Assembly: GCA_045612145.1 (NCBI GenBank)
Contig: JAZKYN010000113.1
Location: 1 to 44,234 of the forward strand
Direction of reading: 5' to 3'
Source: Bacilli bacterium
GTDB taxonomy: Bacteria > Bacillota_I > Bacilli_A > ML615J-28 > CAG-313
DNA: 44,234 bases
In this document: piece after piece, positions 158 through 44,231 of the stretch
Layout of the letters: the number at the start of each line of letters is the position of its first letter
How positions within the stretch are numbered: the first letter of the stretch is position 1
The notes under the pieces: generated by a model
Database searches by the model: none
Seen by the model: the letters and a program-made list of their open reading frames with translations, nothing else
Told to the model about the DNA's origin: nothing
Position numbers and translations under genes: made by a program

Positions 158-466
158 ATGGAACAAAATCAAAAAAAGAACTGACCTGTAATTACATGTC
201 CTCACTGTGGCCACCAATATATTCCTAGTGAGATATTCTATCCAGGTGAACTAATTGGTGAAGCTAAAACAGTTATTAGAGATGCTTTAGGAAAAATCAT
301 TTATCAAGAATATGAATCAGATAATGAACCAGCTCAAGTAGAAAAGTATTTCTGTGACAATTGTGATAAACCATTTATAGTAGAACCAGTAATTACATAT
401 AAAGTAAAGAAAGAAGTTGAAGAGTTAGACTTTACAGAAAAGTTCGTTTCATTATTAGACGACTAA
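158..466 (+). CDS. Zinc-ribbon protein, 102 aa (TGA=Trp at 182)
   Basis: AGGAG RBS and ATG at 158; open to TAA 464-466 if TGA is read through; CPHC...CDNC cysteine pairs. Confidence 0.8.
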
Positions 467-489
467 TTTCAAAATAGGACGATTTCAAA

Positions 490-2202
490 ATGATTAGAAT
501 TACAGAAATTTCACCATGTCGTAAAATGACAGGCAAAAGTTCATTTTTGATCAATTTCGATTTCAATCAGAAGATAGTTGATACACTAAAAACCATTCCT
601 ACTTACTATTATCATAAATCAGATTATAGTTGAGAGATTCCAATTAATTATTTGTCAATGGCATTGGAAGCACTAACATTTATAGATGATGTTTACTTGC
701 ACTTACTGCCAGATGAATCGGATAATCCAAAACAGATCGATTTCAAACTCACTAAAACGGAAATAGATCAATTTCGATTCAAGCCGTTCGATCATCAGAT
801 AGATGGAATTAACTTCGGACTAGATCCTAAACACACTAAGTGATTACTTTGTGATTCAATGGGACTTGGGAAGACCAATGAGATCATCTGGTATGCGGAG
901 ACACTAAAACGTAGAGGATTAATTGATCACTGTTTGATCATCTGTGGAGTTGACTCTCTTAGACAAAACTGAAAGAAAGAAATTCAGAAGTTCTCGACCG
1001 AGTCTGTTTTAGTATTAGGAGAGAAAGTATCTAAGAAAGGTAAAGTCTCATATGCTTCTGTTGACCAACGAGCTAAACAACTGTTGGAACCGATCGAAGA
1101 ATTCTTTGTAGTAGTGAATGTAGCTACACTAAGAAGTGATAAAGTAATAGAAGCTTTCAAGAAGTCAAAAAATAAGTTTGGATTAATTGCCGTAGATGAA
1201 GCACATAAGATCTCTAACAAATCAAGTCAACAAGGAGCTAACTTACTAAAACTAAATTCCCCTTATAAGATAGCTGCGACCGGAACACCGATCGTAAATT
1301 CCCCACTTTCGGCTTACTTACTATTAGCATGAACAGATAATGATAAATCTACACTAACTACTTATAAATCTAACTACTGTGAGTTCGGCGGATTTGGCGG
1401 TAAACAAGTTATTGGATATAAAAATTTAGATGTACTAAAAGAAGAGATGGATTCATGTTCAATCAGAAGAACTCTAGATCAAGTACGTGATGACATGCCA
1501 CTAAAGACTGTACACTATGAAGTTATAGAAATGTCTGATGCACATCGTAAATTCTATGATGCTGTAAAAGAAGGTGTAAAAGAAGAAGCTGACCGCGTAG
1601 AGCTTAAGTCAGGAAACTTACTTGCACTAACTACTAGACTAAGACAAGCTACGGCCTGCCCTGCGATCCTAACAACTCAAGACATTCTATCATCTAAGTT
1701 AGAGAGATGTGTGGAAATAGTGGAAGACTTAGTAAGTCAAGGAGAGAAAGTAGTAATTCTGTCTACATTCAAGGAACCTGTTTACCAATTAGCAAAGCTA
1801 CTAGAAAAATATAGACCTTTAGTGGCAACAGGTGATGTAGATGACCAAATAGCTTTCTCTAGAATGGATCAATTCCAAAACGATCCAATTTCAAAAGTGT
1901 TCATGGGAACTCATGGTAAGTGTGGTACTGGATTCACACTAAATGCTGCATCGTACATGATCTGCATCGATACTCCTTACACCTATTCGAGCTTTAGCCA
2001 ATCTACGGACAGAATCTGAAGAGTTACAAATACTAGACCAGCTTTCATTACAGTATTAACTTGTGGTGACAGTATAGATGAAAGAGTAGCTGCTATTGTT
2101 GAAAACAAAAAAGAATTAGCAGACTTCTTAGTGGATGGAAAAGAAAATAGTATTTCATCTGGATTAAAAGATGAATTAATGAAGATCATAAAGGAACTCT
2201 AG
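490..2202 (+). CDS. SNF2/SMARCAL1-like helicase/annealing ATPase, 570 aa (5 in-frame TGA=Trp)
   Basis: Track fragments 652, 1084 and 1447 share one frame joined by TGA at 631, 841, 970, 1330, 2017; motifs LCDSMGLGKT, SLRQN(W)KKEIQKF, VDEAH, ATGTPIVN, RLRQA, GTGFTL, QSTDRI(W)R; ends at TAG. Confidence 0.93.
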
Positions 2203-2203
2203 T

Positions 2204-2623
2204 ATGAATACTGAATTGAAAAGAATTCATTTATCTGAGTCTTGAGTTCCTCTTGATTCCATGACTTATCGCGGAATTAGTGTGGATTTCTATGAAGACT
2301 GCTTAGGACACCAAGTAGTTACGATGTGGAAAGACAAAGTTATAGAATTTGGAGTATATAATACAGTTTATCAAGACGACATGAAATTAATTATAGATGA
2401 TCACTTGGATACTATTACTAGATTCAAAGATCAGTCGGACTTATATGGATCCAAATTAACTTGATTTCAAAACGGTTCTTTTAGGGATATTAAATTAGTA
2501 TATAAGGGTAGACTACTAAAAGTATACATTAATATAAATGAAAACGATCTGTTTTCAATCGTTCAAGATGCGGAAACAGTATTAAGAAATTATATTTTTA
2601 TAAACACGTCAAAAGACGCTTAA
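2204..2623 (+). CDS. Hypothetical protein, 139 aa (TGA=Trp at 2243 and 2462)
   Basis: ATG 1 nt after the helicase stop; single frame to TAA 2621-2623 with readthrough. Confidence 0.75.
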
Positions 2624-2648
2624 CATTTAAATCAATATATGTTATAAT
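2606..2648 (+). promoter_or_regulatory. ACGTCA-class early promoter (isolated copy)
   Basis: ACGTCA 2606, 8 nt, TTAACA 2620, 17 nt, TATAAT 2643; same geometry as 37 other copies. Confidence 0.8.
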
Positions 2649-2677
2649 TATACTGTAAACAAATGGAGGTTATTAGT

Positions 2678-3097
2678 ATGAAATTTAGATTTAATTTTAA
2701 TTTAGAAGTTTGGGTTGATGGCATTGAAATCGAAGCCAAATCAGAAGAAGAAGCAATTGAACAATTATATAAAATGTCTGTTCAAGAATACTTTGAAGAA
2801 GGTTATGATAGAAACAGTTCAATTTCAGACATCGACTCAGAAGTTATTGAATACAGACAAAAAGTAAAAGCTTATGATATTGAATGGGATATCGAAGAAG
2901 ATGACTATGAAGATAAAGAAGAATATATTAAGTTAATTAATTCTTTACCTGAAGAAGTAGTTGTTGAAATTGAAGTAAATCCAGAATTAGATAATAAATA
3001 TCATTTATCTGAAGAAGACCATATCGCGGACGAAATTTCTTATAAAGTCGGTCGTGATGTAAAAGATTTCAAATATATTGTTTTAGAGGAATTTTAA
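2678..3097 (+). CDS. Acidic hypothetical protein
   Basis: GGAGG RBS favours ATG 2678; ORF track. Confidence 0.75.
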   Translation: MKFRFNFNLEVWVDGIEIEAKSEEEAIEQLYKMSVQEYFEEGYDRNSSISDIDSEVIEYRQKVKAYDIEWDIEEDDYEDKEEYIKLINSLPEEVVVEIEVNPELDNKYHLSEEDHIADEISYKVGRDVKDFKYIVLEEF

Positions 3098-3120
3098 TAA
3101 TTAATTAAGGGGGAAATATT

Positions 3121-3951
3121 ATGAAACCAGTTATTAAATGGGTTGGAGGCAAAGGAAGTGTGCTTCCATTATTCGAAGATTTAATTAAACCATATTTAAA
3201 AGAAAATAATACGTTCTATGAACCGTTCGCTGGAGGGCTTGCGGTTTCTTTAGCGTTACAACATAAAAATACAGTTGTAAATGATTTAAATTCAGAACTC
3301 ATTAATATGTATAAAGTTATTAGAGATAATCCTGAAGAACTAATTTCGGAATTAAAGTGTTTTCAAAATAGTCATAATACTGAGTTCTATTATCATGTTA
3401 GAAATTTAGACAGAACTGATACTTTAAGTAGAATAACTGATGTAGCTAAAGCAGCAAGAACTATTTATTTAAACAAAACTTGTTTCAATGGTTTATATAG
3501 AGTTAATAGTAAAGGCCAATTCAATTCCCCTATTGGTAGAACAGCTTCGGGCAAAACTCCTGACATTGTTCAAGAAGAACTAATTAGAGAAATGAGTCAA
3601 TATTTGAAAACAGTTCAATTTCATAATGGAGATTATAAAAATTGTTTAGTGACTGCTAAAGCAGGGGATGTAGTTTATTTAGACCCACCATATGACCAAG
3701 ATGAATCAATTTCAACTGATGGTTTTGTTGGTTATCAAAAAGAAGGTTGGACTAGAGAAAACTTAAGAGAATTAAAACGACTTTGTGATGAATTGATTTT
3801 CAGAGGTTGTAAAGTTATTATTAGTAATAACGATACTGAATTTGTTAGACAACTTTTCACTGGATATAAATTTAGAGAAATCGAAGTTAAACGTTCTATC
3901 AATAGAGATGGAAATAAAAGAAAAGGAAAAGAATTAGTAATTTATTATTAA
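3121..3951 (+). CDS. dam: DNA adenine methyltransferase, Dam/DpnM (D12) family, probably GATC-specific
   Basis: KWVGGK, YEPFAGG (SAM-binding motif I), NDLN, YLNKTCFNGLYRVN, YLDPPY (catalytic motif IV). Confidence 0.92.
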   Translation: MKPVIKWVGGKGSVLPLFEDLIKPYLKENNTFYEPFAGGLAVSLALQHKNTVVNDLNSELINMYKVIRDNPEELISELKCFQNSHNTEFYYHVRNLDRTDTLSRITDVAKAARTIYLNKTCFNGLYRVNSKGQFNSPIGRTASGKTPDIVQEELIREMSQYLKTVQFHNGDYKNCLVTAKAGDVVYLDPPYDQDESISTDGFVGYQKEGWTRENLRELKRLCDELIFRGCKVIISNNDTEFVRQLFTGYKFREIEVKRSINRDGNKRKGKELVIYY

Positions 3952-3957: not shown

Positions 3958-3965
3958 GCTAAATT
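3958..3965 (+). promoter_or_regulatory. GCTAAATT motif, candidate phage late promoter
   Basis: The same motif precedes the genes at 17295, 18665, 22287 and 40265 (copies at 17204, 18609, 22272, 40219); no sigma-A promoter at this position. Confidence 0.55.
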
Positions 3966-4004
3966 ATTTGATGTTGATAAAACAAACAAAGGAGAGTTTT
4001 ATAT

Positions 4005-7000
4005 ATGAACGAAACTGCTATTGTATATATTGTTCACTCAGACTTAGATGAAAATAATATTTTCGCAATGTTTGAAGATGAAGTAGAAGCAATTATGTAT
4101 GCTAGAAGACATAAAGAAGATTTAACTTATGTCGACAGAACTGAAATGACTTTAGATGAATCAGGTGACTATGACGAAGTTCTTAGTGCTGAAACTATTT
4201 GGGTTTATGATGAAGATGTTGATCCAGAAGACATTGAAGACACACCTGAATTATCTGATGAAGAATTATTTAATATTGATTTCGATGAACTTGAAAAATC
4301 ATTAAATGATGAAGATGATACTACTTGGTTTGAAGATCTTGATACAGATAAATTAGTAGAAACATTAGAAGAAAATGAAGACATCGTTGAATGTAAAGAA
4401 TGTTTTGAATTATTCCCAAAAGAAGCTTGTACTAAAATCGCGATTGGATATATTTGTCCAGAATGTGGCAAGATTCACAGTCATGAAGAGTCAGAATTCG
4501 AAATTGATTCAATTCCAGATGTGTTAATTGCTGATGAAGATACTTTTAAGATTGATTTTCCAGAATTAGAAAGAACTGATTATGGAAATGACATGATTCC
4601 AGATGAACCAACACCAGAAGTTGAAAACGATCCAATTTCAGAACCAGAATGTGTAGGTCCTGAATGTGAAGCACCAGTCGAAGCTCCTGTTACTAAAGAT
4701 GAAACTATTACTAAATTAGTAGTTGATGAACATGAAGCTATCGATGGTTATGAGAAAGCTAAAATCGAAATTGAAGCAAATTCAGAATTAGATGAAAAAG
4801 AAAAAGAAGAAATTCTTGATACTATTGAACATATTAAAGAAGAAGAAATCGAACACATCGAAGAACTTGAAGAGTTGGTTGATGAAGTAGAAGAAACTAA
4901 AGAAGCTGATGAACCTGCTGAAGAGTCTGAACCAGAAAAGCATGAAGTTTTAACTGAAGCTCCTAAATATCCACCACTAGCGGGTGAACAAACTAAGTTA
5001 GATATTTTATTTAGTAACAAAGAAAGTAAGTCTAAAGAAGAAGGAAAACCTCTTTATGGTAAGGGTTATAAATTATGTATTTATGACTATACACAGAACA
5101 ATAATGGTAGTTTTGGAATTAAAGATATTGATACTGAATGAGATAGCTATAATCTTAGTAACATCGAAAATGAATATCCTGAAATTGGAGCAGCTAAAAA
5201 AGATGCAGAAAAACTTTCGAAACAGTTAAAAGATGAAACTATTGGCATTTATATTATTGAATATAAAGGAACAAATCATCCGTATCTTTATTTATTTGAA
5301 GATGGAAAACAAACTAAAACATATGCTAAAGACAAGATAGAACATTTCGAGAAAGAATTTGATAAACATACTACATCTACTAAACAAAAAGAAGGTGAAC
5401 AACAAGAAAATTCTACAAAAGCTTCTACAACAACTTGGACTTTTGTTAATCCAGAAGTAGAAATTAAAGTTGGTACTAAAGGTGGAGAAGCTTCAGTTGC
5501 TATCAAAAAAGGTACAAACCTAGCAGAAAAAAAAGACTTGGAGGGTGTAATTTTTGCTTTTAAAGCAGTATCAGATTTAAAATCAACAGACTCAAAAGTT
5601 GTTAAAGTTAGTGACATTATTAAGACAAAAAACGAAATGGGTAATGTTAACCTTAGCGTAGATAAGAACTATTCTAACTTGACTACTGAAAGTAAAGAAA
5701 AACTTGCTGATGGGGTTACTCTTTATATTACTGTTAAAGAAGGTGGTAGTACTTTTACTAAAGCAAAGTGTACAGTTAAAGTAGTTGAAGCAACAGGCCA
5801 AACTGTTAAAACTAAGAAAGAAGAAGACCCTCCTGTTGGAGTCACTAAAGGACCAACACCTGAACAACTTAAAAGTGCTTACAGACTATTAATAGCTCTT
5901 TTAGGAACAAGTGCTAAAGCAGCAGAATACATTACTGTAGAAGGTAGAGGTAAAAATATTACATATTCTTTAGCTCAAGATATGAATTTTAAGGATGTTA
6001 CAGAGGTGATCAAAAACCTTCAAAAAGATAAATTAGGTGAATCTTTAACAGAACACATTAACGAAGAACATCCAGCTATTGAATCAGATCAAGTTTTAGT
6101 GGGAACTGATAATGCAGTAGTTGACTGCAAAATAAATAAAGTAATTTCTCACAGCGAAGATGAAAAACCAGTTGATTGTAAAGGTGAAAAGAAACCGCTT
6201 AAAAAACCATTAACTGAAGCTTTAAGTGAAGATCAACTTCGAGTAATGGAAGAATACTTAAAAGCCGCTAAATTCAATTCATTAGAAACTGAATGGACAG
6301 ACGAAGGTAATTTTTATATTGATGAATGTAATGCTTACTTAGATTATAATACTAAAACTAATAAATTTGAATTAGGACTTTCTATTTATCATGCTAGTGA
6401 AGATAACAACGCTGAGTATCCAGAAGACAACACTGATGAAGAAGAATTTACTTATGACTCTTTAGCAGAAATGTATGAAGATGAAGAATGTAAAGAAATC
6501 TTAGATATGTTGTATGAAGAAAACGAGCATGACTTTACTGAAAGTTTAACTGAAGAGACTCACGCTAAATATGCTAAACCAGAAGGTAATAGAGTACAAG
6601 CTTATAACAATGCATTAAAATATGCTAAGAAAGAAAACAAACCATTCATTTATGGTTATTCCCAAATGGGTGATGGTAAATTCTTCGCGCTAGAACAACC
6701 AATTAAAGTTTCTAGTACACCAGCAGAAGCTGAAAAAGAATTTAAGAACAGACACAAAAGATGTTCTGTAGTTTATATGGTATATCCAGATAAAGACTTT
6801 GTTACTGAAGGATTATTCACTAAACAAGAACAAGAAGAATATAACATGGATGAAGATGGAAATTCTTTAGACAGTTATGATACATATATTAGATGTGGAT
6901 TCTGTGATGAAATCTACACTAAATCAGAATGTAAGTATGAACGTAACTTAGGTTGGTTATGTCCAAGCTGTGAAGCTGCTATTTATTCTCGTGGTGAAAA

Positions 7001-7040
7001 ACTTACATTTGTTGACCCAGATGAATTTTTAGAAAATTAA
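4005..7040 (+). CDS. Large acidic multi-module protein, 1011 aa, putative internal head protein (one TGA=Trp at 5139)
   Basis: Track ORFs 4005 and 5538 are in frame with only TGA 5139 between them; CxxC zinc ribbons; ferritin-like EHEAI..YE/EEIEH segment; recurrent LTE/LVE sites. Confidence 0.8.
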
Positions 7041-7819: not shown

Positions 7820-7898
7820 ATTTTCCAAAACACGTCGTTTTCATATTTACATTTTTTGATAAATAAGTTATAATTATAATGTAAGGAGACGTGATAGT

Positions 7899-8090: not shown

Positions 8091-8159
8091 ACACGTCAGT
8101 TTTCATTGTACTTTTTATCTTATTTAATTTATAATATAATTAATCAAGGGGGAATCTTT

Positions 8160-9011: not shown

Positions 9012-9023
9012 GGGGAAATTTTT

Positions 9024-33275: not shown

Positions 33276-33279
33276 AAGT

Positions 33280-35737: not shown

Positions 35738-35877
35738 ATTTGTACGTCAGTTCAAACTTTACTTTGAGATATATTTATTATATAATTATATTGTGAGTAG
35801 CTATTATTGTATAAAAAATGTAAAAGTTTATTGTATAATATTATGAATGCAAAGTAAAGCAGTAGGAGGTATTCAAT

Positions 35878-38112
35878 ATGTTTATTATCAATGATACTAA
35901 GAGAGAACTTCAAGAACTTATTAATGGAACAATTTCTGTCAATAGACCTTTCTATGATTTAAAAACTTTAAAAGATACTAAGTATACTTTATATGCTTAT
36001 GTAGAAATTCAAGATGATAAATTATATGTTAAGTTTGGTGAAGCAAAGAAACAATCTATCTATGCTAGATATCATAGAGGAACTGCAACTAAGGCTAATG
36101 ACCGAATGGTAGGTATTTGGGAGTCAGACTGTGGAGATAAAGAAATCCATAGTAAACTAAAAATTAGATCTAAGAATAATAGAGGATATTCTCCAGCTGC
36201 AAAAGAAATCTTAAATACTGAAGAAGCTTATTATGTAGAAGATGCAAGAGGACTACAAAACTTATTAGCTGATATTTCTGACTATGCTGGTTCTAAGAAT
36301 GTATCTACTAGAAGAGCTAGACCTGATTATCCAGATGTAGCTGAGCTTATTAAGTCTGTAGTAGATATGAAGAAAGAAAAGTATATTATGGATCTTTGTA
36401 CAAGATATGGTAAGACTGGTTTCTTCTGTGGTTTATGGAAAGCTATTAATGAATTAGACATTAGAATTAATATCCTTTCTTCTTATGTCGGAACAGTTAA
36501 AACATCTTATTCAGAAGAGCTTAATACTTTAGTACAAAATGAAAACTGTTTATTCGTGGATTCAGATGATATCAGAGAAGATACTTTAGATACTATTAAA
36601 TCTTGGTTAGTTGATCCTAAACATTATATATGTTACTATGTTGCACTTACTGGTGATGAAGATACTTGCTTCGAAAGACGTATCGAATTATTAGATTCAC
36701 TTAAGGGCTATAACAAGAGTTTAGTAATTGAAGAAGCAGATTATGGTGCTGGTTGTGATAAACAAATTAAAAAGATTAGACACTTATATAATACTGTATC
36801 TAATAACTTCAAGATGTTCTTCGCTACTACTGGAACTAAAGCTGAGAAGTGCGAACGTATCTTCGAGCCTGAAGTAGTTATTAAGAGAGACTATATTTTA
36901 GATATCCTAAACAAAAGACCAAATGCTGTTGGTATTAACTGGTACTGTTTAAATAACTCTGAGATGGTTAAAGTGTTTAACTATAATACTGTAGAGATGG
37001 AAAACTTCACAGATATGTTTACATTGGATAATGGTAAGTTAAGAGGCGAACTATGGTTTAGAGATACACTTAAATTCTTATTTAATAAAGAGCTTCCTGT
37101 AATGAACAAAGAAACTAGAAAGTATAGAAATCATAATCTTATTAATGATTCTATGTCTATGATCTTTACTCCTGCTAATAATGAAGCACAACAAGTATTT
37201 AAGAAACTAATTGAAGAAGTATGTCCTGGTTACTGGGTAAGAGTTATTAATGGTGATGAGATGACTAATGCTACTGCGGAAAAAGAAATCAAAGATGCTA
37301 TTAGAGACCAAGGAACAAGAGGTATTCTTATTGCTAGTAGTATGGCTAATAGATCATTCTCTATTCCACAAATCAAGAATGTCTTACTAATGTGTAATGC
37401 TTGTATGCCGGACCAAAAGATTGCAAGAGGTTTAACACCTTGGGCTGAACAAAAAGATATGAGATGTAATGTCATTGACTTTAGATTAGCTTATGAACAA
37501 TCTAAGTTATCAGACTATCTTTCTAATATCGCTGTAGACTCATTAAGTGATACAGCAACTCATACTTCTGTCGATCAACTATTAGAAGAAATTCGTGCGT
37601 CTGAAAAGCTTTCTTTCTATGAATACTTTAGTAGTGGAGTTAATCCGATCCGTGAGATGACTTCTGATGAACTAAGAATTCAAATGCACAGCAGACCTTT
37701 CCATGTAGCTAGAGCACTTAAACTTCTTATGGTAGATATTAATAGTATTGATCTTCCTGATGCAAGATTTACTGTTAAAGAAAAATTAGACTTTAATGAC
37801 TTAGCTAATAGTAATATTAAAGGTGATGCAGATAGAAAGATTCTAATCAATAGAAGATTTAAAGAAACAACTGGTAAGACAAAGAAGGAATTAGAACAAG
37901 ACCAACGTATTAACTATCTTGCTTACTTATTAAACCACAAAGATGAATTCAATTCTGGTAAGTATGAAACTAATATTCTAGAAAATGAATTTAAGAATAA
38001 TATGTCAGAAACTAGAAGACTTGCGATCGAGAATGCTTTCAACCTTGATATGAAAGTATTAAGTCAAATTGCAGACTTATTAATTAATAATGGAATTGCA
38101 ATTTACAATTAA
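35878..38112 (+). CDS. Restriction-endonuclease-like protein: GIY-YIG/T5orf172-like N-terminus plus SF2 helicase
   Basis: YTLYAY...YVKFGEA...ARY N-terminus; DLCTRYGKT (Walker A), VIEEADYG (Walker B variant), ATTGT, MANRSFSIPQI, QKIARGLT. Confidence 0.7.
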   Translation: MFIINDTKRELQELINGTISVNRPFYDLKTLKDTKYTLYAYVEIQDDKLYVKFGEAKKQSIYARYHRGTATKANDRMVGIWESDCGDKEIHSKLKIRSKNNRGYSPAAKEILNTEEAYYVEDARGLQNLLADISDYAGSKNVSTRRARPDYPDVAELIKSVVDMKKEKYIMDLCTRYGKTGFFCGLWKAINELDIRINILSSYVGTVKTSYSEELNTLVQNENCLFVDSDDIREDTLDTIKSWLVDPKHYICYYVALTGDEDTCFERRIELLDSLKGYNKSLVIEEADYGAGCDKQIKKIRHLYNTVSNNFKMFFATTGTKAEKCERIFEPEVVIKRDYILDILNKRPNAVGINWYCLNNSEMVKVFNYNTVEMENFTDMFTLDNGKLRGELWFRDTLKFLFNKELPVMNKETRKYRNHNLINDSMSMIFTPANNEAQQVFKKLIEEVCPGYWVRVINGDEMTNATAEKEIKDAIRDQGTRGILIASSMANRSFSIPQIKNVLLMCNACMPDQKIARGLTPWAEQKDMRCNVIDFRLAYEQSKLSDYLSNIAVDSLSDTATHTSVDQLLEEIRASEKLSFYEYFSSGVNPIREMTSDELRIQMHSRPFHVARALKLLMVDINSIDLPDARFTVKEKLDFNDLANSNIKGDADRKILINRRFKETTGKTKKELEQDQRINYLAYLLNHKDEFNSGKYETNILENEFKNNMSETRRLAIENAFNLDMKVLSQIADLLINNGIAIYN

Positions 38113-38151
38113 TTTATTGTATAATATTATGTAAAGGAAGTGTAAAGGAAT

Positions 38152-39243
38152 ATGCTAAATTTAAAAGAGAAGGAACTATTTGATAAGAAGATAAGTATTA
38201 TTAACAATAAGAGATTTAGAGATTCTTTTATTGCTTCACAGCAATCAGATATTAATGATTGGAATGTAGGATTAGTTGCACTATGGAATACTCCAGTATT
38301 ATTCTATGAATTAAAGAAAACTTATCCAAATAAGAAATTCTATTATGTAGAAACAGAAGGCTTAAAAGATGTCTATGGTGTAGATACTGAAGATACTATT
38401 TATATTAAAGAAGAAGAGGAGCTTGCAGATATTATGAAGAAATTTAAAAATCCTAAATTAATTATTAATCCACCTTATTCTATTGGAGGTAAGGTTGTTG
38501 CTAAATGTAAAGAAGTTTGTCCAGATGCAAAGTATTCTATCTTAATGCCTCTTGCACAATATAAATCTGTTGAAGTTAAAGGACATAAACTTTATGAGTT
38601 TATTAATACTATGAAAGTAGTTGGAGGCGAAGGTTTTGATGCTGCAATTACTAAAAACAATTGTATAGTAACTTTATCCGATAAACCCAATTCTTCTAAA
38701 GTGTATTTAGATTTTATGCTCCAATCATTTGACCAAAGATATATTGAGTTCTATAAGTGGAATATTCAAAATAATAAAGGGTATACTTGGACAAGTGTTA
38801 AAGATCCTTTAACTCTTAATATCGATACCGATTTTATCGATATGTCTAGATTTGTGTCTACTAATAATGACTCAGGTGGTGCTCATGGATATCATGGTAA
38901 AAATGGCTGTGGATATTCTTGGAATGTTCTTCATAAGCATGATAAACTAATTTCATCCTTAGTTAAACTTTCTTTTAAGACTTTACAAGCTAGAGAAAAT
39001 TATAATCAATATGCATACAACTGGACAACTGATAAGTATAACTGTTTAGCTAGCAAAACTATCTATGGTTTAAATACTACCTCAGTTAGTTCAGAATACT
39101 ATATGTTAGTACCACAAATCGATTGGGATAATATTCATATTAATCAAAAAGCACTTTGGGATCAATGTTTATACGATGAAGCAGTATTAGCAGAGATGGG
39201 ACTTAAGTGGGATGGAGATACTATCGTAAAGGAGATTAACTAA
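38152..39243 (+). CDS. Adenine methyltransferase-like subunit (catalytic NPPY motif plus probable target-recognition region)
   Basis: LIINPPY, ILMP; no clear FxGxG motif I. Confidence 0.65.
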   Translation: MLNLKEKELFDKKISIINNKRFRDSFIASQQSDINDWNVGLVALWNTPVLFYELKKTYPNKKFYYVETEGLKDVYGVDTEDTIYIKEEEELADIMKKFKNPKLIINPPYSIGGKVVAKCKEVCPDAKYSILMPLAQYKSVEVKGHKLYEFINTMKVVGGEGFDAAITKNNCIVTLSDKPNSSKVYLDFMLQSFDQRYIEFYKWNIQNNKGYTWTSVKDPLTLNIDTDFIDMSRFVSTNNDSGGAHGYHGKNGCGYSWNVLHKHDKLISSLVKLSFKTLQARENYNQYAYNWTTDKYNCLASKTIYGLNTTSVSSEYYMLVPQIDWDNIHINQKALWDQCLYDEAVLAEMGLKWDGDTIVKEIN

Positions 39244-39770
39244 TGTATTTAACAGAAGAACAAAAGTCAGCTATTAGATTTGAATTTTTTGCTTTCCAAC
39301 ATAATATGTATTTAGGTAAGACTAAGAAAGAAAGACAAGAGTTAGATCAATTCTTTACTCCAGCTGAGTTAACTATTAAGATGTTAGAAGCACTAGACTG
39401 TACTTATGAAGAATTCTTGGATTCAGATGTTATAGATCCTACTAGTGGTAGTGGTAACTTATTAGCAGCAGCATTAATTATTGGAGTAGATCCACATAGA
39501 GTATTTGGAAATGAATATGATGCTACTATGGTTACTGCTTGTAGAAAAAGACTAAAAGCAATTAATCCTAAAGTAAGAGATTGGCAGATACATCAAGGCA
39601 ATGCTTTATTAGAAGTATGTCTAACTGAATTTAATAAAGACTATGATAAAACTGTCTTACCAGAATTACTAACTTACCGTCCAGCAATAAAGGGAACTTG
39701 GTTAGAATATCCTAATAAATATGGATTAGGTAAGATTGAAGCAGTAGATTTATTTGGAGGATTATTTTAA
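39243..39770 (+). CDS. Methyltransferase SAM-binding subunit (N6-MTase N-terminal half)
   Basis: LDQFFTP (motif X), VIDPTSGSGNLL (motif I), FGNEYD, IHQGNAL; no NPPY/DPPY. Confidence 0.75.
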   Translation: MYLTEEQKSAIRFEFFAFQHNMYLGKTKKERQELDQFFTPAELTIKMLEALDCTYEEFLDSDVIDPTSGSGNLLAAALIIGVDPHRVFGNEYDATMVTACRKRLKAINPKVRDWQIHQGNALLEVCLTEFNKDYDKTVLPELLTYRPAIKGTWLEYPNKYGLGKIEAVDLFGGLF

Positions 39771-39991
39771 TGACTAAACAAGAAGCACTAGATTATATTA
39801 ATAGTTTACCTGAAGACAGTAATATCGAAATAACAGTAACTGACCGAATTGTGTCTTCTGGCGAAATTGAGAAGATGGGTATTAGTAGACAGTTACTTAG
39901 ATATTATGTAAGTATTGGAAAAGTTCGAACTGTACCTTATGGTAAACAAAAGAAATACTTATTAGATGATATTAATAAATTAAGAGGATAA
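39770..39991 (+). CDS. Small HTH DNA-binding protein (MerR/excisionase-like)
   Basis: EIEKMGISRQLLRYYVSIGKVR...YLLDDI. Confidence 0.65.
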   Translation: MTKQEALDYINSLPEDSNIEITVTDRIVSSGEIEKMGISRQLLRYYVSIGKVRTVPYGKQKKYLLDDINKLRG

Positions 39992-39994
39992 ATT

Positions 39995-40180
39995 ATGTTA
40001 TTAAGAATTGTAGTTAATAAAAAGAATGGAACTAATTATTCCAAAACTTATGAAGGTCCAATCGCAGCAGTAGTTGAAAATAACTATATTAGAATTATTG
40101 ATATTAATAAGAATAAAATTTTAGATTTAATTGAATTAAACGACACTGTAGAATCATATAGTATTTATAATTATAATTAA
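39995..40180 (+). CDS. Small hypothetical protein
   Basis: GAGG RBS; terminator AGACAGAT/ATCTGTCT follows. Confidence 0.7.
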   Translation: MLLRIVVNKKNGTNYSKTYEGPIAAVVENNYIRIIDINKNKILDLIELNDTVESYSIYNYN

Positions 40181-40264
40181 TAAATAAGACAGATTAAATA
40201 GTATCTGTCTTTTCTTTTGCTAAATTATATGACTGCAAAGTAATTTGTAAAGGAGACTAATTAT

Positions 40265-41527
40265 ATGGACGATAAAATTATTAAAACATATACTGACTAT
40301 ACTGTCTTTATTGAAGACCCTGTTTTAGACTGCTATTATTGAATAGAAAATTTTTCAGAAGATGACGGACATACTAAAGAAGAGGCTCTTGACTATGCTA
40401 ATAAATTAGCTATGGCAATCGAGAACTATGACGCAGGTGTTTGAGTAGAAAAACGCTTAGTCACTGAATATGAAGACTTTGGACCTGACGGTGGTGAAGG
40501 AGATCCTAATCCACAAGTTATTTGGAAGTCTTATAATTTAGAAGATGTCGACGTTGGCGAAGGTTATTTTGATACTGACGGTTATCCTAATCTTCCTGAC
40601 GAGTTTATTAGTAATGATACAGAACAAAATAAAACTGAAGATGAAGAACCTGTTGAAGATGAAGTTATTTCTACTTGCACAGACTGACATGTATTTGTTA
40701 AAGATCTTAAGTCTGGTGACTACGACTTTGCAAAGGAATTTTCAGAAGACTGAAATAATACTAAAGAAGACGCAATTAAGTATGCTCAAAAAATAAATGA
40801 AACTACAGATTTTGCTACTTGAGTTGAACAAGTTATTGTTACTACTTATAGAGATTTCGGTCCAGATGGTGGAGAAGGTGATCCTAATCCTAAAGTTGTT
40901 TGGAAATCTCCAGAACTTAAAAATGTTAAAGATAATGATTTAGAACAAGGTGATTATGGAAATCTCTGAGACGAAAAATATTCTAAAGCTTTTACAGAAT
41001 CACTAGAAGAAAACTTAAGTAATGTTAAGTTTGAATGATTAAATAAACAAGCAGAAGTAATTTATCCTTTTGAAGAAACTGATGAAGAAGGATATCTTTT
41101 AGTTGATTACGGCGCAGGTGTATGCAATACTTTAGTTGCTAATGATCTTGTAAATATTAATATTGATGTATTAGTAGACTTTAGTGATGTAGATGTGGGC
41201 TATGATCCTGGTTATGAAAAGAGTGACTGGTGACAAACTATTACTATTGATACTTCAGGTTATATTGTAGAATTTAATTCTGTGAATTATAGAGTTACAT
41301 ATGAATCAGCAGAAACAGAAGACCACATTACTATTGATGAAGCAGCTACTATTCTAGGTATTACTAAAGATGAACTACAAGCTGAAGTAGATCGTAGATG
41401 TAAAGAATTATATAAAAACAGTGTAAGTAAAGTAGAAGATATTTATCTTGATGATTTAAAAGAAAGAGATGCAGAGGCTTATGTAGATGCTCATGCTGAC
41501 GACTGATATGATACTAATTGAGACTAA
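40265..41527 (+). CDS. Acidic repeat-domain protein, 420 aa (10 TGA=Trp), putative virion internal protein
   Basis: AAGGAG RBS; one frame with TGA at 40340, 40442, 40685, 40751, 40820, 40967, 41036, 41231, 41504, 41519; DFGPDGGEGDPNP.V.WKS occurs twice. Confidence 0.85.
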
Positions 41528-41544
41528 GAGTTAGGAGACATATT

Positions 41545-42744
41545 ATGATTAAAACCGAATTCATGAATTTATATGAAGAGTTAAATACTTTAAATGAAGC
41601 GACTAGCCCAGAAGTACAAGCTTTTTATAAGTCTTTAAATGTTAGAACTAAAGACCCAGTAGATACTGAAAGTTTTATTAAAGCTTTTAAGAAAGATATT
41701 CCAGATAATATTTGAGACCAATTATTTACTGTTGATATGAGACTTAAAAATAGAGGTACTTATGGTGTTATAAAGAATGGAAATTTACCAGCAGAAGTAA
41801 CTACCGCATTAAAGAAATACTGAGCTTTCCAATTTGCTTCTAATGTAACTTGGTTTGAAACTACAACTATGATTGCTAAAGAAGAAGAAGCTAAAAGAAA
41901 AGAAGAGGAAGAGAAAAAAGCTCAAGAAGAAAAACTACTTAGTGATGCAAAAGAATACATAGATAGAGCTAATCATGTTCTTACTTTAGTTGATAAAACT
42001 GCAATGCAAAGAGTACTTGACTTAGCAAAAGAATTAGAACCAAACTCTTTTAATAGACTACAACAAACTCCTAAAGTTAAGATTGGTTACTATAATAATA
42101 GTCGAAGAGAAAAATATATAAATATAGATATTTACTTTTATGATTTTTTAATAAAGGTATATGATAGTGGTAGTAAGCATATACCAACAGAACAAGAAAT
42201 AGTAGATGACTTTAATAGTTCTGTTCTAAATGAGATACGTAGATGAGAAGCTATTAAAGCAGAAATATTAGCTAAACAAACTCGTCAAGAAAAATATAAG
42301 AATGCTAAATGATATAGTGTAGAATTTGAAAAATGAGCTTCATCTAATAAAGAAGGTATTTTCTTATTTCAATTACCAGATGATGAAGGCATTCAAAGAC
42401 TTACTAGATTAAGTTGAGATATAGTTGAACGTTGTCGCTTTACTGATGATGTAGAGTTAATTGCTGTTATTACAGATTATGACCAACCAATGCGTAATCC
42501 TAATTCAGCTACAGAAAATAGTTACTACTATAGATATTATAGTGTAAATAGTAAAGCTGATCCAGCCGACTTAGAAGATGAAGGAATATTATTAGATCCT
42601 AGTAAGTTTGTAGATAAGTCTACTTGAGGAGAACAAACTTATAAAGAAATAAGTAAAGGTAGTATTAATAATCACTCTGGCTATTTTATTACTGGAATGG
42701 ATAGATGATTTAAATACACAAGTGAGACTTACGGTACAGAATAA
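41545..42744 (+). CDS. Hypothetical protein, 399 aa (8 TGA=Trp), putative virion internal protein
   Basis: AGGAG RBS; TGA at 41713, 41821, 42244, 42310, 42334, 42415, 42625, 42706; N-terminal FMNLYEELNTLNEA propeptide-like segment. Confidence 0.8.
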
Positions 42745-42754: not shown

Positions 42755-42787
42755 AGATATAAGTGAATAATGCTTATATCTTTTTTT
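42755..42787 (+). terminator. Intrinsic terminator
   Basis: GATATAAG...CTTATATC followed by T7. Confidence 0.8.
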
Positions 42788-42821
42788 ATACTGTATAATA
42801 TATTAAGTGAGGTATTATTAT

Positions 42822-43169
42822 ATGGATAGAACAATTAAAACAGCAAAAATTCCTACTGAAATAATTAAACATAATCCAAAACTCTTAGAAGACATAAAGC
42901 TTAAACAAAGAGCAGATTTATTTAGAGAAATACCTATTGCAGATAATCAGCCGATAGTATTGACTTTTAGATCTATAGATGAAACTTCTATTGAACACTT
43001 TAATACTACTTTAACTACTACTGTTGAAGTACAATATCCTGAGACGAGACGTATAGTTATAAATAAATGTATAGGTGAAACTTATACAGAGCATACAAGC
43101 TTTTGGCAAAAGTTAAAATTATTATTTAGTAAGAAATCAGTATATACAAAAGAAACCAAGGAGCTGTAA
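42822..43169 (+). CDS. Hypothetical protein
   Basis: TGTATAAT promoter; GAGGT RBS favours ATG 42822. Confidence 0.75.
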   Translation: MDRTIKTAKIPTEIIKHNPKLLEDIKLKQRADLFREIPIADNQPIVLTFRSIDETSIEHFNTTLTTTVEVQYPETRRIVINKCIGETYTEHTSFWQKLKLLFSKKSVYTKETKEL

Positions 43170-43171
43170 TT

Positions 43172-43438
43172 ATGGAAGTAATTTATACAGGTGAAGAAAA
43201 GAATTTACATTATCTCTTAGCTAAGAGAATAATTAAAAGCAGAAAAATCAAGACTGATGACATAGCTACAGTAGATTTTAATATTATTATGCCAACTGAC
43301 CAAATGCCTTTGTGGACTCTTAGAGTAACTACTAAAGGTACTGAAGGATATTTAGGTGAAGAAAAGTTTTATTTAAAGAAGTGTGTCAAGCATAATTTTT
43401 CTATTACTTGGGCAAACTTAAAGAAAGGAAACTTTTAA
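43172..43438 (+). CDS. Hypothetical protein
   Basis: AAGGAG RBS. Confidence 0.75.
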   Translation: MEVIYTGEEKNLHYLLAKRIIKSRKIKTDDIATVDFNIIMPTDQMPLWTLRVTTKGTEGYLGEEKFYLKKCVKHNFSITWANLKKGNF

Positions 43439-43441
43439 TAT

Positions 43442-43642
43442 ATGACGAGAGATAAAGCAGTAAAAGTAAGTCATTTAATATTTAAAATTGAATCCTTAGA
43501 AATGCTCATCGATGAATTAGAAAATCTAGAAAGCTTAGACGAATATTATGGAGACTTTGGTGATGATACTCTGCAAGACGAAATAGTAGCAGTAGTTAAA
43601 GCTAGATTAGATAAAGCTTTAAAAGAATTGGAGGAGATGTAG
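43442..43642 (+). CDS. Small helical hypothetical protein
   Basis: AAGGA RBS. Confidence 0.75.
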   Translation: MTRDKAVKVSHLIFKIESLEMLIDELENLESLDEYYGDFGDDTLQDEIVAVVKARLDKALKELEEM

Positions 43643-43643
43643 T

Positions 43644-44231
43644 ATGACCCCTGAATTAATTATATCATTAGTATCTTTGGTACTATCTACAGCCTGCAGT
43701 ATGGTGACAGTATTTGTAACACTTAAAGTTGGACAGCTTAATAATTTAGAAGCCATACATAAATATCAAAAAAAGATAACTCCTTTTGAATTAACCTTTA
43801 AAGACAAGAAATGATTTTTAGACCTTATAGATAAAGGCGAGTTTGGTAATTATGATGAGAATAGCCAAACTATTATGAAAGCTTGGTATAAAAAGATTTG
43901 TCAAGAAGAGGCAGCAAAGGAACAACTAGAACAAGAAGCTTTTATTAAACAAGCTAAAGCTCCTATTAGACCTACTGGAAGAACTAGTAGAGGCAGTACT
44001 ATTAGAATTCCTATCTTACCAACAAGAGATGAAATGTTTAGTTCAGGTCTTCCGGTAGATGTTGTTATTCCAGGTAAAGATGAAGTAGTTAATATCAAAG
44101 CGTTGGAAGAAATTCGTAATCAATATAGTGTAGATGATACTGAGAGTATATCTAATAATAAAGATTTAGAATTTGATTTTGATGAATTATTAGTAGCTAA
44201 TATAGAAATAAAAAATAAAGAAGATAGATAA
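43644..44231 (+). CDS. Membrane-anchored protein, 195 aa (TGA=Trp at 43812)
   Basis: GGAGG RBS; N-terminal hydrophobic helix LIISLVSLVLSTACSMVTVFVTL in frame with track ORF 43875. Confidence 0.75.

What the first reader, a model, noticed from the sequence alone, without database searches (positions are those of the whole stretch)
158..44231. Two genetic codes in one genome: TGA=Trp confined to replication, metabolic and virion-type genes
Seen: TGA occupies conserved Trp sites (SNF2 QN-W-KKE; NrdG NPDG-W, IWV-W-TGY, W-RGS.NQ). I count 41 in-frame TGA in 13 genes. Every gene behind an ACGTCA promoter, plus dam, the sigma-like factor, nrdD and the RM-like module, uses only TGG (more than 70 Trp codons by my count) and ends in TAA/TAG, despite AT pressure favouring TGA. 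Known: stop-codon-recoded gut phages concentrate recoded codons in late genes. Inference: early genes are code-neutral so a standard-code host can translate them, and they then convert the cell to UGA readthrough. Gating here also covers DNA-metabolism genes.
Basis: partly seen in the sequence, partly recalled or inferred. Interest (0 to 1): 0.85.

Follow-up and report, generated by a model that had tools for sequence, protein, structure and literature searches.

The report
TGA-to-Trp recoded phage, code-neutral early genes
This contig is a piece of a large gut phage that reads the stop codon TGA as tryptophan in some genes and avoids TGA entirely in the genes behind its 36 early promoters, a clean new example of a code-switching strategy already described for gut phages.

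Summary
The window is a whole contig (C113) of phage DNA binned with a standard-code, low-GC bacterial assembly. Thirteen genes carry 41 in-frame TGA and 14 TGG. The other 66 called genes carry 0 TGA and 121 TGG, and all 79 genes end in TAA or TAG. TGA sites align with Trp in relatives (SNF2 5 of 5; 7 W, 3 Y and 0 G among 13 sites against a standard-code relative).

A rigid promoter, ACGTCA-N8-TTTAC-N18-TATAAT, occurs 36 times, all on the + strand. Apart from the doubtfully assigned gene 4005-7040 (1 TGA), the 56 genes it drives hold no TGA. Close relatives (88-96% SNF2 identity) show graded recoding, yet their early genes stay TGG-only.

No suppressor tRNA, RF1 or TrpRS lies in the window, which covers roughly a fifth of the size of its complete relatives (220-233 kb), so the switch itself is not shown. 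"Virion-type" is unsupported. A sigma-like early protein is only weakly suggested. Recoding of DNA-metabolism genes is already reported as variable.

The parts
158..466 (+). Zinc-ribbon-like protein, recoded (1 TGA at codon 9, 0 TGG)
   Evidence: At this codon the relatives have TGA (L083, L086, L088), TGG (L087, L089) or TAT (L085).
490..2202 (+). SNF2-family helicase, recoded (5 TGA, 1 TGG)
   Evidence: Pfam SNF2-rel_dom 1.5e-28. All 5 TGA sites align with W/TGG in relatives.
2204..2623 (+). Unknown protein, recoded (2 TGA, 1 TGG)
2606..3951 (+). Early promoter (2606-2648) driving TGA-free genes 2663-3097 and dam 3121-3951 (4 TGG)
   Evidence: promoter. Pfam MethyltransfD12 2.6e-58. Both genes are TGG-only in every relative that covers them, including the heavily recoded L083.
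3958..3966 (+). GCTAAATTA motif, a candidate non-early promoter element upstream of 4005
   Evidence: 6 copies, all on the + strand, against 1.07 expected. The motif is kept on the + strand in 9 of 10 close relatives; where I compared coordinates it lies just upstream of the 4005 homologue.
4005..7040 (+). 1011-aa acidic protein read through one TGA (5139); 5 TGG
   Evidence: The homologue in L083 is a 922-aa ORF with 8 in-frame TGA.
7832..17178 (+). First early array: 12 ACGTCA promoters and 18 TGA-free genes (7899-17178)
15199..16086 (+). Conserved early protein, a possible divergent sigma-like factor (weak); TGA-free, 5 TGG
   Evidence: No Pfam hit. AF2 mean pLDDT 53. Foldseek gave no hit at E<=0.001, but many weak sigma-factor rows, e.g. 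8b3z_A SigE N-domain with prob 0.85. Homologues at 44-50% identity in relatives.
17792..17814 (+). Intrinsic-terminator-like hairpin before the recoded pair
17862..18540 (+). Two recoded unknown genes: 17862-18308 (4 TGA, 0 TGG) and 18310-18540 (1 TGA, 0 TGG)
   Evidence: In G005, two sites of 17862 align with W and the site in 18310 aligns with H.
18665..20878 (+). nrdD (class III ribonucleotide reductase), TGA-free, 7 TGG
   Evidence: Pfam NRDD 4.9e-145. GCTAAATTA lies at 18609. 64.7% identical to the Thomasclavelia phage TR-TP1 NrdD but 28.5% to the syntenic G005 NrdD.
20871..21473 (+). Formate/nitrite-transporter-family protein, recoded (2 TGA, 1 TGG)
   Evidence: Pfam Form_Nir_trans 8.2e-18; PDB alignments.
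21473..21988 (+). nrdG activase, recoded (4 TGA, 1 TGG)
   Evidence: Pfam Fer4_12 2.5e-42. Site 39 aligns with W in 54 of 78 homologues, site 102 with W in 54 of 77, site 140 with W in 13 of 77, and site 82 with no W.
21991..22628 (+). Two small recoded genes, 21991-22269 and 22287-22628 (1 TGA each; the second depends on the start codon)
22634..35786 (+). Second early array: 23 ACGTCA promoters, TGA-free genes 22703-35049, many terminator/promoter hairpin modules
35104..35740 (+). Candidate structured non-coding RNA behind early promoter 35056-35098, ending at terminator 35710-35732
   Evidence: Fold z-score -4.5. No Rfam match. No homologue in the loci held or in 'phages'.
35878..40180 (+). 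TGA-free module behind promoter 35744: 744-aa Helicase_C protein, 363-aa protein, N6-MTase-like 175-aa protein and two small genes (18 TGG)
40186..40227 (+). Terminator-like hairpin (40186-40211), then GCTAAATTA (40219-40227), at the boundary to the recoded genes
40265..42744 (+). Two heavily recoded ORFan genes: 40265-41527 (10 TGA, 3 TGG) and 41518-42744 (8 TGA, 1 TGG)
   Evidence: No Pfam or PHROG family. No homologue in G001 or G005.
42807..43642 (+). Three TGA-free small genes behind a TGTATAAT box without ACGTCA
43644..44231 (+). Last gene on the contig, with a hydrophobic N-terminal stretch (by eye; no transmembrane prediction was run); recoded (1 TGA, 1 TGG)

Best explanation
C113 is a 44-kb fragment of a large phage whose complete relatives are 220-233 kb. 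The phage uses TGA as a Trp codon in some of its genes while infecting a bacterium that uses the standard code.

Shown:
1. TGA stands at Trp positions.
2. The usage is all-or-none by gene class. Thirty-six rigidly spaced promoters with a near-consensus -35, a 17-nt spacer and a consensus -10 (ACGTCA-N8-TTTAC-N18-TATAAT) drive genes that lack TGA both as sense codon and as stop codon. These genes translate the same way under either code.
3. Genes outside these units, several of them behind a conserved GCTAAATTA motif and a terminator, use TGA for about three quarters of their Trp codons.
4. Close relatives show stepwise TGG-to-TGA replacement in the same genes. The early-unit genes stay TGG-only.

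Inferred:
- The ACGTCA units are host-RNA-polymerase early genes.
- UGA decoding is supplied later by a phage suppressor tRNA-Trp(UCA) that lies outside this fragment. Complete standard-code relatives carry arrays of 17-32 tRNAs that include tRNA-Trp(CCA), one anticodon change away from UCA.
- The TGA-bearing genes therefore stay untranslatable until the switch.
- A divergent sigma-like early protein (15199-16086) may redirect transcription to the second promoter class. That would lock the recoded genes at both transcription and translation.
For: TGA = Trp:
- SNF2: 5 of 5 sites align with W in relatives of 60-67% identity. In Firmicutes-phage helicases they align with W or F at 4 sites and H or Y at the fifth.
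- Of 13 TGA sites alignable to the standard-code relative G005, the aligned residues are 7 W, 3 Y, 1 H, 1 R, 1 D and 0 G.
- NrdG sites 39 and 102 align with W in 54 of 78 and 54 of 77 homologues.

Mosaic:
- 41 TGA and 14 TGG in 13 genes, against 0 TGA and 121 TGG in 66 genes. Off-frame TGA density, GC3 and Trp content are equal in both classes.

Promoter link:
- 36 matches, all on the + strand, against 0.05 expected.
- Genes in these units: 57 genes with 1 TGA and 110 TGG. The one TGA is in 4005-7040, which sits behind a GCTAAATTA motif. Other genes: 22 genes with 40 TGA and 25 TGG. Fisher p = 3e-21.
- Terminator-like hairpins: 18 against 2.9 expected in 24.3-44.2 kb, with hairpins at the class boundaries 17792 and 40186.

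Standard-code bin:
- prfB scores 494 bits. The only tRNA-Trp has anticodon CCA. Code-11 ORF cover is about 0.95 on most contigs. TGA ends 42 of 1043 long ORFs.

Relatives:
- The window is syntenic with G005 84.5-127 kb.
- G005 and G004 use the standard code and carry 17 and 32 tRNAs, including Trp(CCA).
- G001 is TGA-recoded (cover 0.787 to 0.912). TGA lies in its tail fibre, terminase and other large genes, and its array of small genes is almost TGA-free.
- Close relatives show a gradient: SNF2 has 0 TGA in L085, L087, L089 and L090; 2 in L084, L086 and L088; 5 in the window; 6 in L083. Genes 2663 and dam are TGG-only in all relatives that cover them.
- GCTAAATTA is kept in 9 of 10 close relatives.

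The model matches passages of the Borges et al. preprint.
Against: - No suppressor tRNA, RF1 or TrpRS lies in the window or elsewhere in the assembly.
- There is no tRNA at all in the two TGA-recoded relatives G001 and G002. Each is about 46% complete.
- No UCA variant of the clade's tRNA-Trp anticodon arm occurs among the 65 IMG/VR matches (31 C, 30 G, 4 A at that position).
- No RF-1-domain or trpS match was found in five relatives.
- The host link is binning only. There is no CRISPR array in the assembly.
- 'Early' is inferred from promoter sequence, not measured.
- nrdD is TGA-free although it sits behind GCTAAATTA among recoded genes.
- The major head protein of G001, a late gene, has 0 TGA among 4 Trp codons (P = 0.07).
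- The ACGTCA promoter is not found in the more distant relatives G001 and G005.
- The sigma-like assignment rests on a low-confidence model and on hits above E = 0.07.
Confidence: 0.72

Rival explanations
1. Efficiency rather than timing. UGA suppression always competes with host RF2, so genes that need high or reliable output (strong-promoter early genes, nrdD, the major capsid) are selected to keep TGG. Low-demand genes drift to TGA under AT pressure. No temporal switch is needed.
For: - The ACGTCA units have near-consensus promoters and strong GGAGG ribosome sites, so 'early' and 'highly expressed' are confounded.
- nrdD is TGA-free among recoded neighbours. In the 14 TGA-recoded loci that carry this NrdD type it has 0-1 TGA against 3-7 TGG. 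In two of those loci (L230, L232) nrdG has 3 TGA and 1 TGG.
- The G001 major head protein has 0 TGA among 4 Trp codons.
Against: - The absence is absolute: 0 of 121 Trp codons across 66 genes, many of them tiny ORFans. A soft preference should leak, as it does in the nrdD homologues.
- The early genes also avoid TGA as a stop codon.
- The head-protein case is not significant (P = 0.07).
- The loci include duplicates and related phages, so they are not independent.
Confidence: 0.2
2. The true host reads TGA as Trp (code 4) and the contig was binned with the wrong genome. TGG-only usage would then simply track some other property of the genes.
For: Binning is the only link to the standard-code assembly. 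There is no CRISPR array and no long DNA match.
Against: - In a code-4 host nothing would hold TGA at zero in 66 genes of 19% GC3.
- Only 13 of 79 genes use TGA. The Borges preprint reports about 90% of genes with in-frame TGA for phages whose hosts share their code (that case is code 25; passage seen).
- The clade includes complete standard-code members that carry tRNA-Trp(CCA).
- The best SNF2 and NrdD matches are phages of Bacillus, Streptococcus, Clostridium and Thomasclavelia.
Confidence: 0.03
3. Mosaic origin. The TGA-free genes were acquired recently from standard-code phages or bacteria, or the contig is an assembly chimera, and they have not yet drifted to TGA.
For: The nrdD-transporter-nrdG cassette has been exchanged. 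The window's NrdD is 28.5% identical to the syntenic G005 gene but 75-77% identical to NrdD of other large phages.
Against: - GC3 and off-frame TGA density are identical in the two classes.
- The two classes alternate along the contig.
- The TGA-free genes share one promoter in 36 copies.
- Gene order is syntenic with G005 and G001.
- Early genes 2663 and dam stay TGG-only across relatives of 75-84% nucleotide identity, while their neighbours toggle between TGG and TGA.
- The nearest NrdD relatives sit on TGA-recoded contigs themselves.
Confidence: 0.04

Closest known systems
Alternatively coded (stop-codon-recoded) gut phages of standard-code hosts, in particular the TGA-recoded large Jade, Sapphire and Agate clades (Borges et al. 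preprint 10.1101/2021.08.26.457843; passages read)
   Same: - TGA is read as Trp.
- Only a fraction of genes is recoded.
- The genome is large, a Firmicutes-type host is predicted, and the phage comes from an animal gut.
- Standard-code and recoded members are close relatives.
- The proposed model is the same: standard-code-compatible genes are translated first, and the code then changes.
- Recoding of replication genes is variable.
   Different: - Here the code-neutral class is defined by an explicit 36-copy promoter and by terminator-bounded units. The word 'promoter' does not occur in that preprint.
- No suppressor tRNA, RF1 or TrpRS is seen in the fragment.
- There are no structural or lysis genes in the window.
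- Membership of a named clade was not tested.
crAss-like and Lak phages with TAG (or TGA) reassignment (search listing only for PMC9523058, PMC10136315, PMC12386605; Ivanova 2014 and Yutin 2021 recalled, not read)
   Same: In-frame stop codons are concentrated in part of the genome. A phage suppressor tRNA is the presumed decoder.
   Different: Different phage lineages and hosts (Bacteroidota). Mostly TAG to Gln. The window's SNF2 helicase and NrdD match those of Firmicutes phages best.
Temporal promoter cascades of large lytic phages: host sigma-70 early promoters, then a phage sigma-like factor with a short late motif such as T4 TATAAATA (recalled, not read)
   Same: Many strong early promoters of host type in front of small genes. 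A second short A/T-rich motif (GCTAAATTA) stands in front of other genes. A possible early-encoded sigma-like protein.
   Different: Nothing here is measured. The sigma-like call is weak. The coupling of promoter class to genetic code is the feature specific to this case.
Code 25 phages of Absconditabacteria and Gracilibacteria (TGA = Gly), as described in the Borges preprint
   Same: In-frame TGA.
   Different: None of the 13 TGA sites aligns with Gly. Only 16% of genes carry TGA, against about 90% in that group.

Membership tests
Alternatively coded phage, TGA to Trp (code 4), in a standard-code host | In-frame TGA at positions that are Trp in homologues | tested here: met
   SNF2 5 of 5 sites. 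7 W, 3 Y and 0 G among 13 sites against G005. NrdG sites 39 and 102. TGA/TGG toggling at the same codons in close relatives.
Alternatively coded phage, TGA to Trp (code 4), in a standard-code host | Coding density clearly higher under the alternative code than under code 11 | tested here: met
   ORF cover rises from 0.637 to 0.800, and to only 0.710 with TAG recoded. No other contig of 5 kb or more in the assembly rises by more than 0.06.
Alternatively coded phage, TGA to Trp (code 4), in a standard-code host | Only part of the genes is recoded; a standard-code-compatible set remains | tested here: met
   13 of 79 genes carry TGA. 66 genes have 0 TGA and 121 TGG.
Alternatively coded phage, TGA to Trp (code 4), in a standard-code host | Phage-encoded suppressor tRNA (anticodon UCA) or other code-change machinery (RF1, TrpRS) | tested here: inconclusive
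   None in the window or the assembly. None in the partial recoded relatives G001 and G002. The window is only about a fifth of the size of its complete relatives. The Borges preprint found suppressors in only 35% of TGA-recoded genomes.
Alternatively coded phage, TGA to Trp (code 4), in a standard-code host | Host uses the standard code | tested here: inconclusive
   The bin has RF2, tRNA-Trp(CCA) and dense code-11 ORFs. The phage-host link is co-binning only; there is no CRISPR array.
Alternatively coded phage, TGA to Trp (code 4), in a standard-code host | Recoding in structural and lysis genes | not testable with these tools
   No structural or lysis gene was recognised in the window. In relative G001 the tail fibre (18 TGA) and large terminase (6 TGA) are recoded, but the major head protein is not.
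Named clades Jade / Sapphire / Agate | Phylogenetic placement with the clade's reference genomes | not tested
   No reference sequences were available and the supplementary tables are closed. The 220-233 kb size of the complete relatives is compatible with the genome sizes the preprint reports for its large clades.
Code 25 (TGA = Gly) phage | TGA at Gly positions; most genes carry TGA | tested here: not met
   0 Gly among 13 aligned sites. 13 of 79 genes carry TGA.
Sigma-70-family factor (protein 15199-16086) | Recognisable sigma region 2/4 by profile or by confident fold match | tested here: inconclusive
   No Pfam sigma hit even at E<=5. AF2 pLDDT 53. Foldseek best E = 0.078. Many weak sigma chains appear among the top 50 rows, but none at E<=0.001.

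The most novel reading that the evidence does not exclude
The two codes may be wired to two promoter classes. Host-type ACGTCA promoters drive only code-neutral genes. A second conserved motif (GCTAAATTA), read with the help of an early-encoded divergent sigma-like protein, drives the TGA-bearing genes. The late programme would then be locked twice, at transcription and at translation. The graded series of close relatives shows this lock being built codon by codon. A bolder extension, with much lower odds, is that the ~630-nt structured RNA made from an early promoter (35104-35740), which contains a T-arm-like hairpin, takes part in the code switch.
Probability: 0.3. Interest if true: 0.65.

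Novelty: new member of a known kind. Interest (0 to 1): 0.4.

Why it matters
Three points.

1. The contig is phage DNA inside a bacterial bin and has to be annotated with a code-aware gene caller. Under code 11 its helicase, NrdG and several long genes are split into pieces.

2. It gives an unusually clean natural test bed for the 'switch codes mid-infection' model. The code-neutral set is marked by one explicit promoter present 36 times. The boundaries to the recoded genes are marked by terminators and a second conserved motif. Related contigs at 88-96% protein identity capture intermediate stages, from 0 to 6 TGA in the same helicase gene. Time-course, reporter and proteomic tests can therefore be designed directly.

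3. The nrdD (TGG-only) versus nrdG (TGA-rich) contrast inside one cassette recurs in other recoded phages. Sequence alone cannot separate timing from expression demand here, and this contrast is a specific place to test the two.

Tried and rejected
Searches for the decoder:
- ARAGORN on the window found nothing at default settings. At relaxed settings it gave only low-score calls, which I judged spurious.
- ARAGORN on the whole assembly found 22 tRNAs and no UCA anticodon.
- An Rfam tRNA scan of relatives found arrays only in standard-code members.
- An IMG/VR scan for the clade's tRNA-Trp anticodon arm with a free first anticodon base gave 0 UCA among 65 matches.
- RF-1 domain and trpS family searches in G001-G005 found nothing.
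- The metagenome records behind L102 (273 kb) and L118 (138 kb) are not held, so they were not searched.

Function of the two most heavily recoded genes (40265-41527 and 41518-42744):
- No Pfam or PHROG hit.
- No IMG/VR relative of the first, and no relative of either in G001 or G005.

Other searches that found nothing:
- No IMG/VR relative of the 744-aa protein.
- Rfam on the window, and on 33900-35900 at E up to 10, gave only a sub-threshold group II hit inside a gene.
- The candidate RNA 35104-35740 has no match in 'phages' or in the loci held.

Host link:
- No CRISPR-like array.
- Only short or weak DNA matches to other contigs of the bin.
- The host nrdD and nrdG are 31% and 39% identical to the phage genes, so there was no recent exchange.

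Sequencing runs:
- 20 runs hold up to 24% of the sampled words; they are animal-gut runs, mostly labelled bovine gut, from 10 studies.
- Contigs of two RNA-library runs and two DNA runs were laid on 7000-26999. They cover pieces of both gene classes at 85-99% likeness. Contigs cannot show transcription, starts or levels, and RNA libraries can hold DNA, so I draw nothing on expression or on uncovered parts.

Miscounted spacers: my first two promoter patterns had the wrong spacing. One search is the correct pattern.

Hypotheses considered and rejected:
- Selenocysteine or programmed read-through by the host tRNA alone. There are 41 sites, with up to 10 in one gene.
- Pseudogenes. The frames stay open and the sites are conserved Trp positions.

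Papers:
- Borges et al. preprint: passages only.
- PMC13037316: passages only.
- All other papers: the search listing, or recalled.
- Supplementary tables that could place this phage in a named clade could not be seen.

Full report
WHAT THE WINDOW IS

The 44,234-base window is the whole of contig C113 of a 1.69-Mb, 165-contig assembly. All convincing genes lie on the + strand. GC is 29.7%, against a median of 27.7% for the assembly.

Stop-to-stop ORF cover (ORFs of 100 aa or more) rises from 0.637 under code 11 to 0.800 when TGA is read as sense. With TAG read as sense it reaches only 0.710. None of the other 109 contigs of 5 kb or more rises by more than 0.06, and most already sit near 0.95 under code 11. 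No shorter contig looks like more of the same phage.

The assembly encodes RF2 (prfB, 494 bits against a cut-off of 370). Its only tRNA-Trp has anticodon CCA (22 tRNAs found). It ends 42 of 1043 long ORFs with TGA. C113 is therefore TGA-recoded phage-like DNA binned with a standard-code bacterium.

THE OBSERVATION

Those genes also hold 14 TGG. The other 66 genes I called hold no TGA and 121 TGG. All 79 genes end in TAA (68) or TAG (11).

The two classes do not differ in off-frame TGA density, in GC3 (0.197 vs 0.187) or in Trp content counted as TGG+TGA (1.51% vs 1.35%). The in-frame absence is specific, and TGA fills the place of TGG.

Before counting I dropped the following. ORF 33998-34282 (3 TGA) lies on a repeated non-coding element and overlaps a promoter. 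Three N-terminal ORF extensions owe their TGA to the TGATATAAT promoter box or to upstream sequence. A few ORFs of under 80 aa were also left out. One counted site, 22308, depends on the start codon chosen.

The TAA/TAG-stop point is weak. With 4% TGA stops in the bin, only about 3 TGA stops would be expected in 79 genes.

TGA MEANS TRP

All five TGA sites of the SNF2 helicase align with W (TGG) in most of 17 relatives of 41-67% identity. In helicases of Bacillus, Streptococcus and Clostridium phages they align with W or F at four sites and with H or Y at the fifth.

Thirteen TGA sites are alignable to the complete standard-code relative G005. The aligned residues there are 7 W, 3 Y, 1 H, 1 R, 1 D and no G.

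In NrdG, sites 39 and 102 align with W in 54 of 78 and 54 of 77 homologues. Site 140 aligns with W in 13 of 77, where L and F dominate. Site 82 is variable and has no W. Site 39 also aligns with W in PflA.

ANATOMY

The intergenic regions carry a repeated promoter. The pattern ACGTCA-N8-TTTAC-N18-TATAAT, allowing up to 2 mismatches, matches 36 times, all on the + strand, against 0.05 expected. It has a near-consensus -35, a 17-nt spacer and a consensus -10, often with a TG extension. It is followed by TGTAAG and a GGAGG ribosome site.

In many copies the ACGTCA lies in or beside the loop of a terminator-like hairpin whose 3' arm runs into the -35. Gene units are thus insulated from one another. 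There are 18 terminator-like sites against 2.9 expected in 24.3-44.2 kb.

I assigned genes to these units by their own promoter, or by a gap of 60 nt or less after a unit gene. This gives 57 genes with 1 TGA and 110 TGG, against 22 genes with 40 TGA and 25 TGG (Fisher p = 3e-21). The one TGA belongs to gene 4005-7040. That gene follows dam after a 53-nt gap holding a different motif, GCTAAATTA. Without it, by subtraction, the class has 56 genes, 0 TGA and 105 TGG.

GCTAAATTA occurs 6 times, all on the + strand, against 1.07 expected. It lies upstream of 4005, 17295, nrdD, 22287 and 40265. The sixth copy lies in the spacer of an early promoter. At 40219 it directly follows a terminator-like hairpin. 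It is kept on the + strand in 9 of 10 close relatives; where I compared coordinates it lies just upstream of the 4005 homologue.

Ten TGA-free genes lie outside such units: nrdD with 7 TGG, and nine small genes with 0-2 TGG each.

GENE CONTENT

Pfam supports SNF2, Dam, NrdD with an ATP-cone, a formate/nitrite-transporter-family protein, NrdG, a Helicase_C protein and, weakly, an N6-methylase.

Nearly all the proteins I scanned from the ACGTCA units, and the two most recoded genes (40265-41527 with 10 TGA, 41518-42744 with 8 TGA), have no Pfam or PHROG family. 'Virion-type' is therefore not supported.

It has no Pfam hit. Its AF2 model has pLDDT 53. Foldseek gives no hit at E<=0.001, but many weak rows are sigma factors, for example the SigE N-domain and pro-sigma-K with prob 0.85-0.87. 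This is a hint only.

RELATIVES

The SNF2 protein finds IMG/VR contigs of 60-67% identity and up to 233 kb. G005 (233 kb, CheckV 100%) and G004 (220 kb, 96%) use the standard code and carry 17 and 32 tRNAs, including an identical tRNA-Trp(CCA).

The window is syntenic with G005 84.5-127 kb, so it is about a fifth of the size of these complete relatives.

G001 (105 kb, 46% complete) is TGA-recoded: cover rises from 0.787 to 0.912. G002 (100 kb, 46% complete) looks TGA-recoded from its 21.7-kb locus L020: cover rises from 0.737 to 0.844. In G001's large-gene region there are 134 TGA and 146 TGG. The recoded genes include a tail fibre (18 TGA) and the large terminase (6 TGA). Its array of small genes is almost TGA-free. 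The homologue of 15199 in G001 carries its one TGA six codons before a TAA.

More distant members (L021, L022) look TAG-recoded. The wider group therefore includes standard-code, TGA-recoded and apparently TAG-recoded members.

Metagenome contigs give closer relatives, at 88-96% SNF2 identity and 75-84% nucleotide identity. At the same Trp codons they form a series. SNF2 has 0 TGA in L085, L087, L089 and L090; 2 in L084, L086 and L088; 5 in the window; and 6 in L083. The 4005 homologue of L083 has 8 TGA. Genes 2663 and dam are TGG-only in every relative that covers them. This is direct evidence for ongoing TGG-to-TGA replacement in one class and for constraint against it in the other.

THE nrdD QUESTION

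The window's NrdD is only 28.5% identical to the syntenic G005 gene. It is 64.7% identical to the NrdD of Thomasclavelia phage TR-TP1 and 75-77% identical to NrdD on other large, TGA-recoded IMG/VR contigs.

Of the 80 loci that carry this NrdD type, all have a NrdG match and 22 have a match to the window's transporter-family gene downstream of nrdD. The window's module has been exchanged relative to G005.

In the 14 TGA-recoded loci of that set, NrdD has 0-1 TGA against 3-7 TGG. In two of them nrdG has 3 TGA and 1 TGG. These loci are not independent.

The nrdD exception is thus recurrent. It is better explained by a need for early or abundant product than by recent import from a standard-code source.

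MECHANISM AND ITS LIMITS

The most likely reading is the published one. Code-neutral genes are expressed first by host machinery, and a phage factor then makes UGA readable. The Borges et al. preprint states this model, describes the TGA-recoded large Jade, Sapphire and Agate phages of Firmicutes, describes closely related standard-code and recoded genomes, and calls recoding of replication genes variable (passages). A 2026 survey of jumbo phages also reports recoding together with suppressor tRNAs (passages).

The factor itself is not visible here. There is no tRNA, RF1 or TrpRS in the window, in the assembly or in the partial recoded relatives. No UCA variant of the clade's tRNA-Trp turned up in IMG/VR.

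'Early' is inferred from promoter sequence alone. Strong promoters also mean high expression, so the efficiency rival (competition with RF2) cannot be excluded. The absolute zero among 121 codons speaks for a hard block rather than a preference.

The host link is co-binning only.

VERDICT

This is a new member of a known kind.

What it adds is an explicit promoter-defined partition, a conserved second motif at the boundaries, and a graded series of close relatives.

Supplementary files of the papers could not be consulted.

Noticed in passing
window 35104-35740 (+): About 630 nt with no convincing ORF, lying between an early promoter (35056-35098) and a terminator-like hairpin (35710-35732). 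Its GC content looks higher than its surroundings (by eye from the sequence; not measured for this stretch). The fold z-score is -4.5. It contains a T-arm-like hairpin (GTGG-TTCAATT-CCAC). This looks like an unclassified structured RNA expressed early.
   Followed up: partly
window 27915-28080, 32019-32178, 33998-34220: Three copies of a non-coding element, each just upstream of an early promoter. They share the palindrome ACTAAATTTAGT, a G-run, and GATC-containing repeats such as GATTCAGATCG and TACGATGCG-GATC. The phage encodes a Dam methylase. The function of the element is unknown.
   Followed up: no
window, e.g. 11530-11558, 25846-25872, 28078-28100, 29695-29719, 30044-30070: In many early promoters the ACGTCA box sits in or beside the loop of a terminator-like hairpin whose 3' arm forms the -35. 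Terminator and next promoter are thus fused into one module.
   Followed up: partly
window 18665-21988; loci L164-L243: A formate/nitrite-transporter-family gene lies just downstream of nrdD in the window and in 22 of the 80 large-phage contigs examined; all 80 also have a NrdG match. From recall, class III ribonucleotide reductase uses formate as its reductant, so a phage formate channel would make sense here.
   Followed up: partly
assembly contigs C146 (7.8 kb), C155, C64: These contigs of the same bin gain ORF cover when TAG is read as sense (C146 0.596 to 0.853). C146 has ORFs of 597, 411 and 353 aa with 6, 3 and 2 in-frame TAG. They look like fragments of a TAG-recoded phage in the same bin.
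   Followed up: partly
assembly contig C70, 44720-45013: The end of this 45.6-kb contig holds a homologue (37% identity) of early gene 30946-31269 and a 121-nt stretch 81% identical to window 30932-31052. This may be another phage or prophage in the bin.
   Followed up: no
loci L021, L022 (TAG), L007/L020/L083/L107 (TGA), G004/G005 (standard): One group of phages related through the SNF2 helicase contains standard-code, TGA-recoded and apparently TAG-recoded members.
   Followed up: partly
L036 888-976 (G004): ARAGORN calls an 89-nt tRNA with a four-base anticodon (tcac) inside the tRNA array of a standard-code relative.
   Followed up: no
G001 99146-100063 (L007 19811-20728): The homologue of the early protein 15199-16086 in a TGA-recoded relative carries its single TGA six codons before a TAA. 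The TGA would act as a stop before any code switch and as a short extension after it.
   Followed up: partly
window 4005-7040: The single TGA (5139) splits this 1011-aa acidic protein into a 378-aa product under the standard code and the full length under code 4. The gene could therefore give two products at different times.
   Followed up: no
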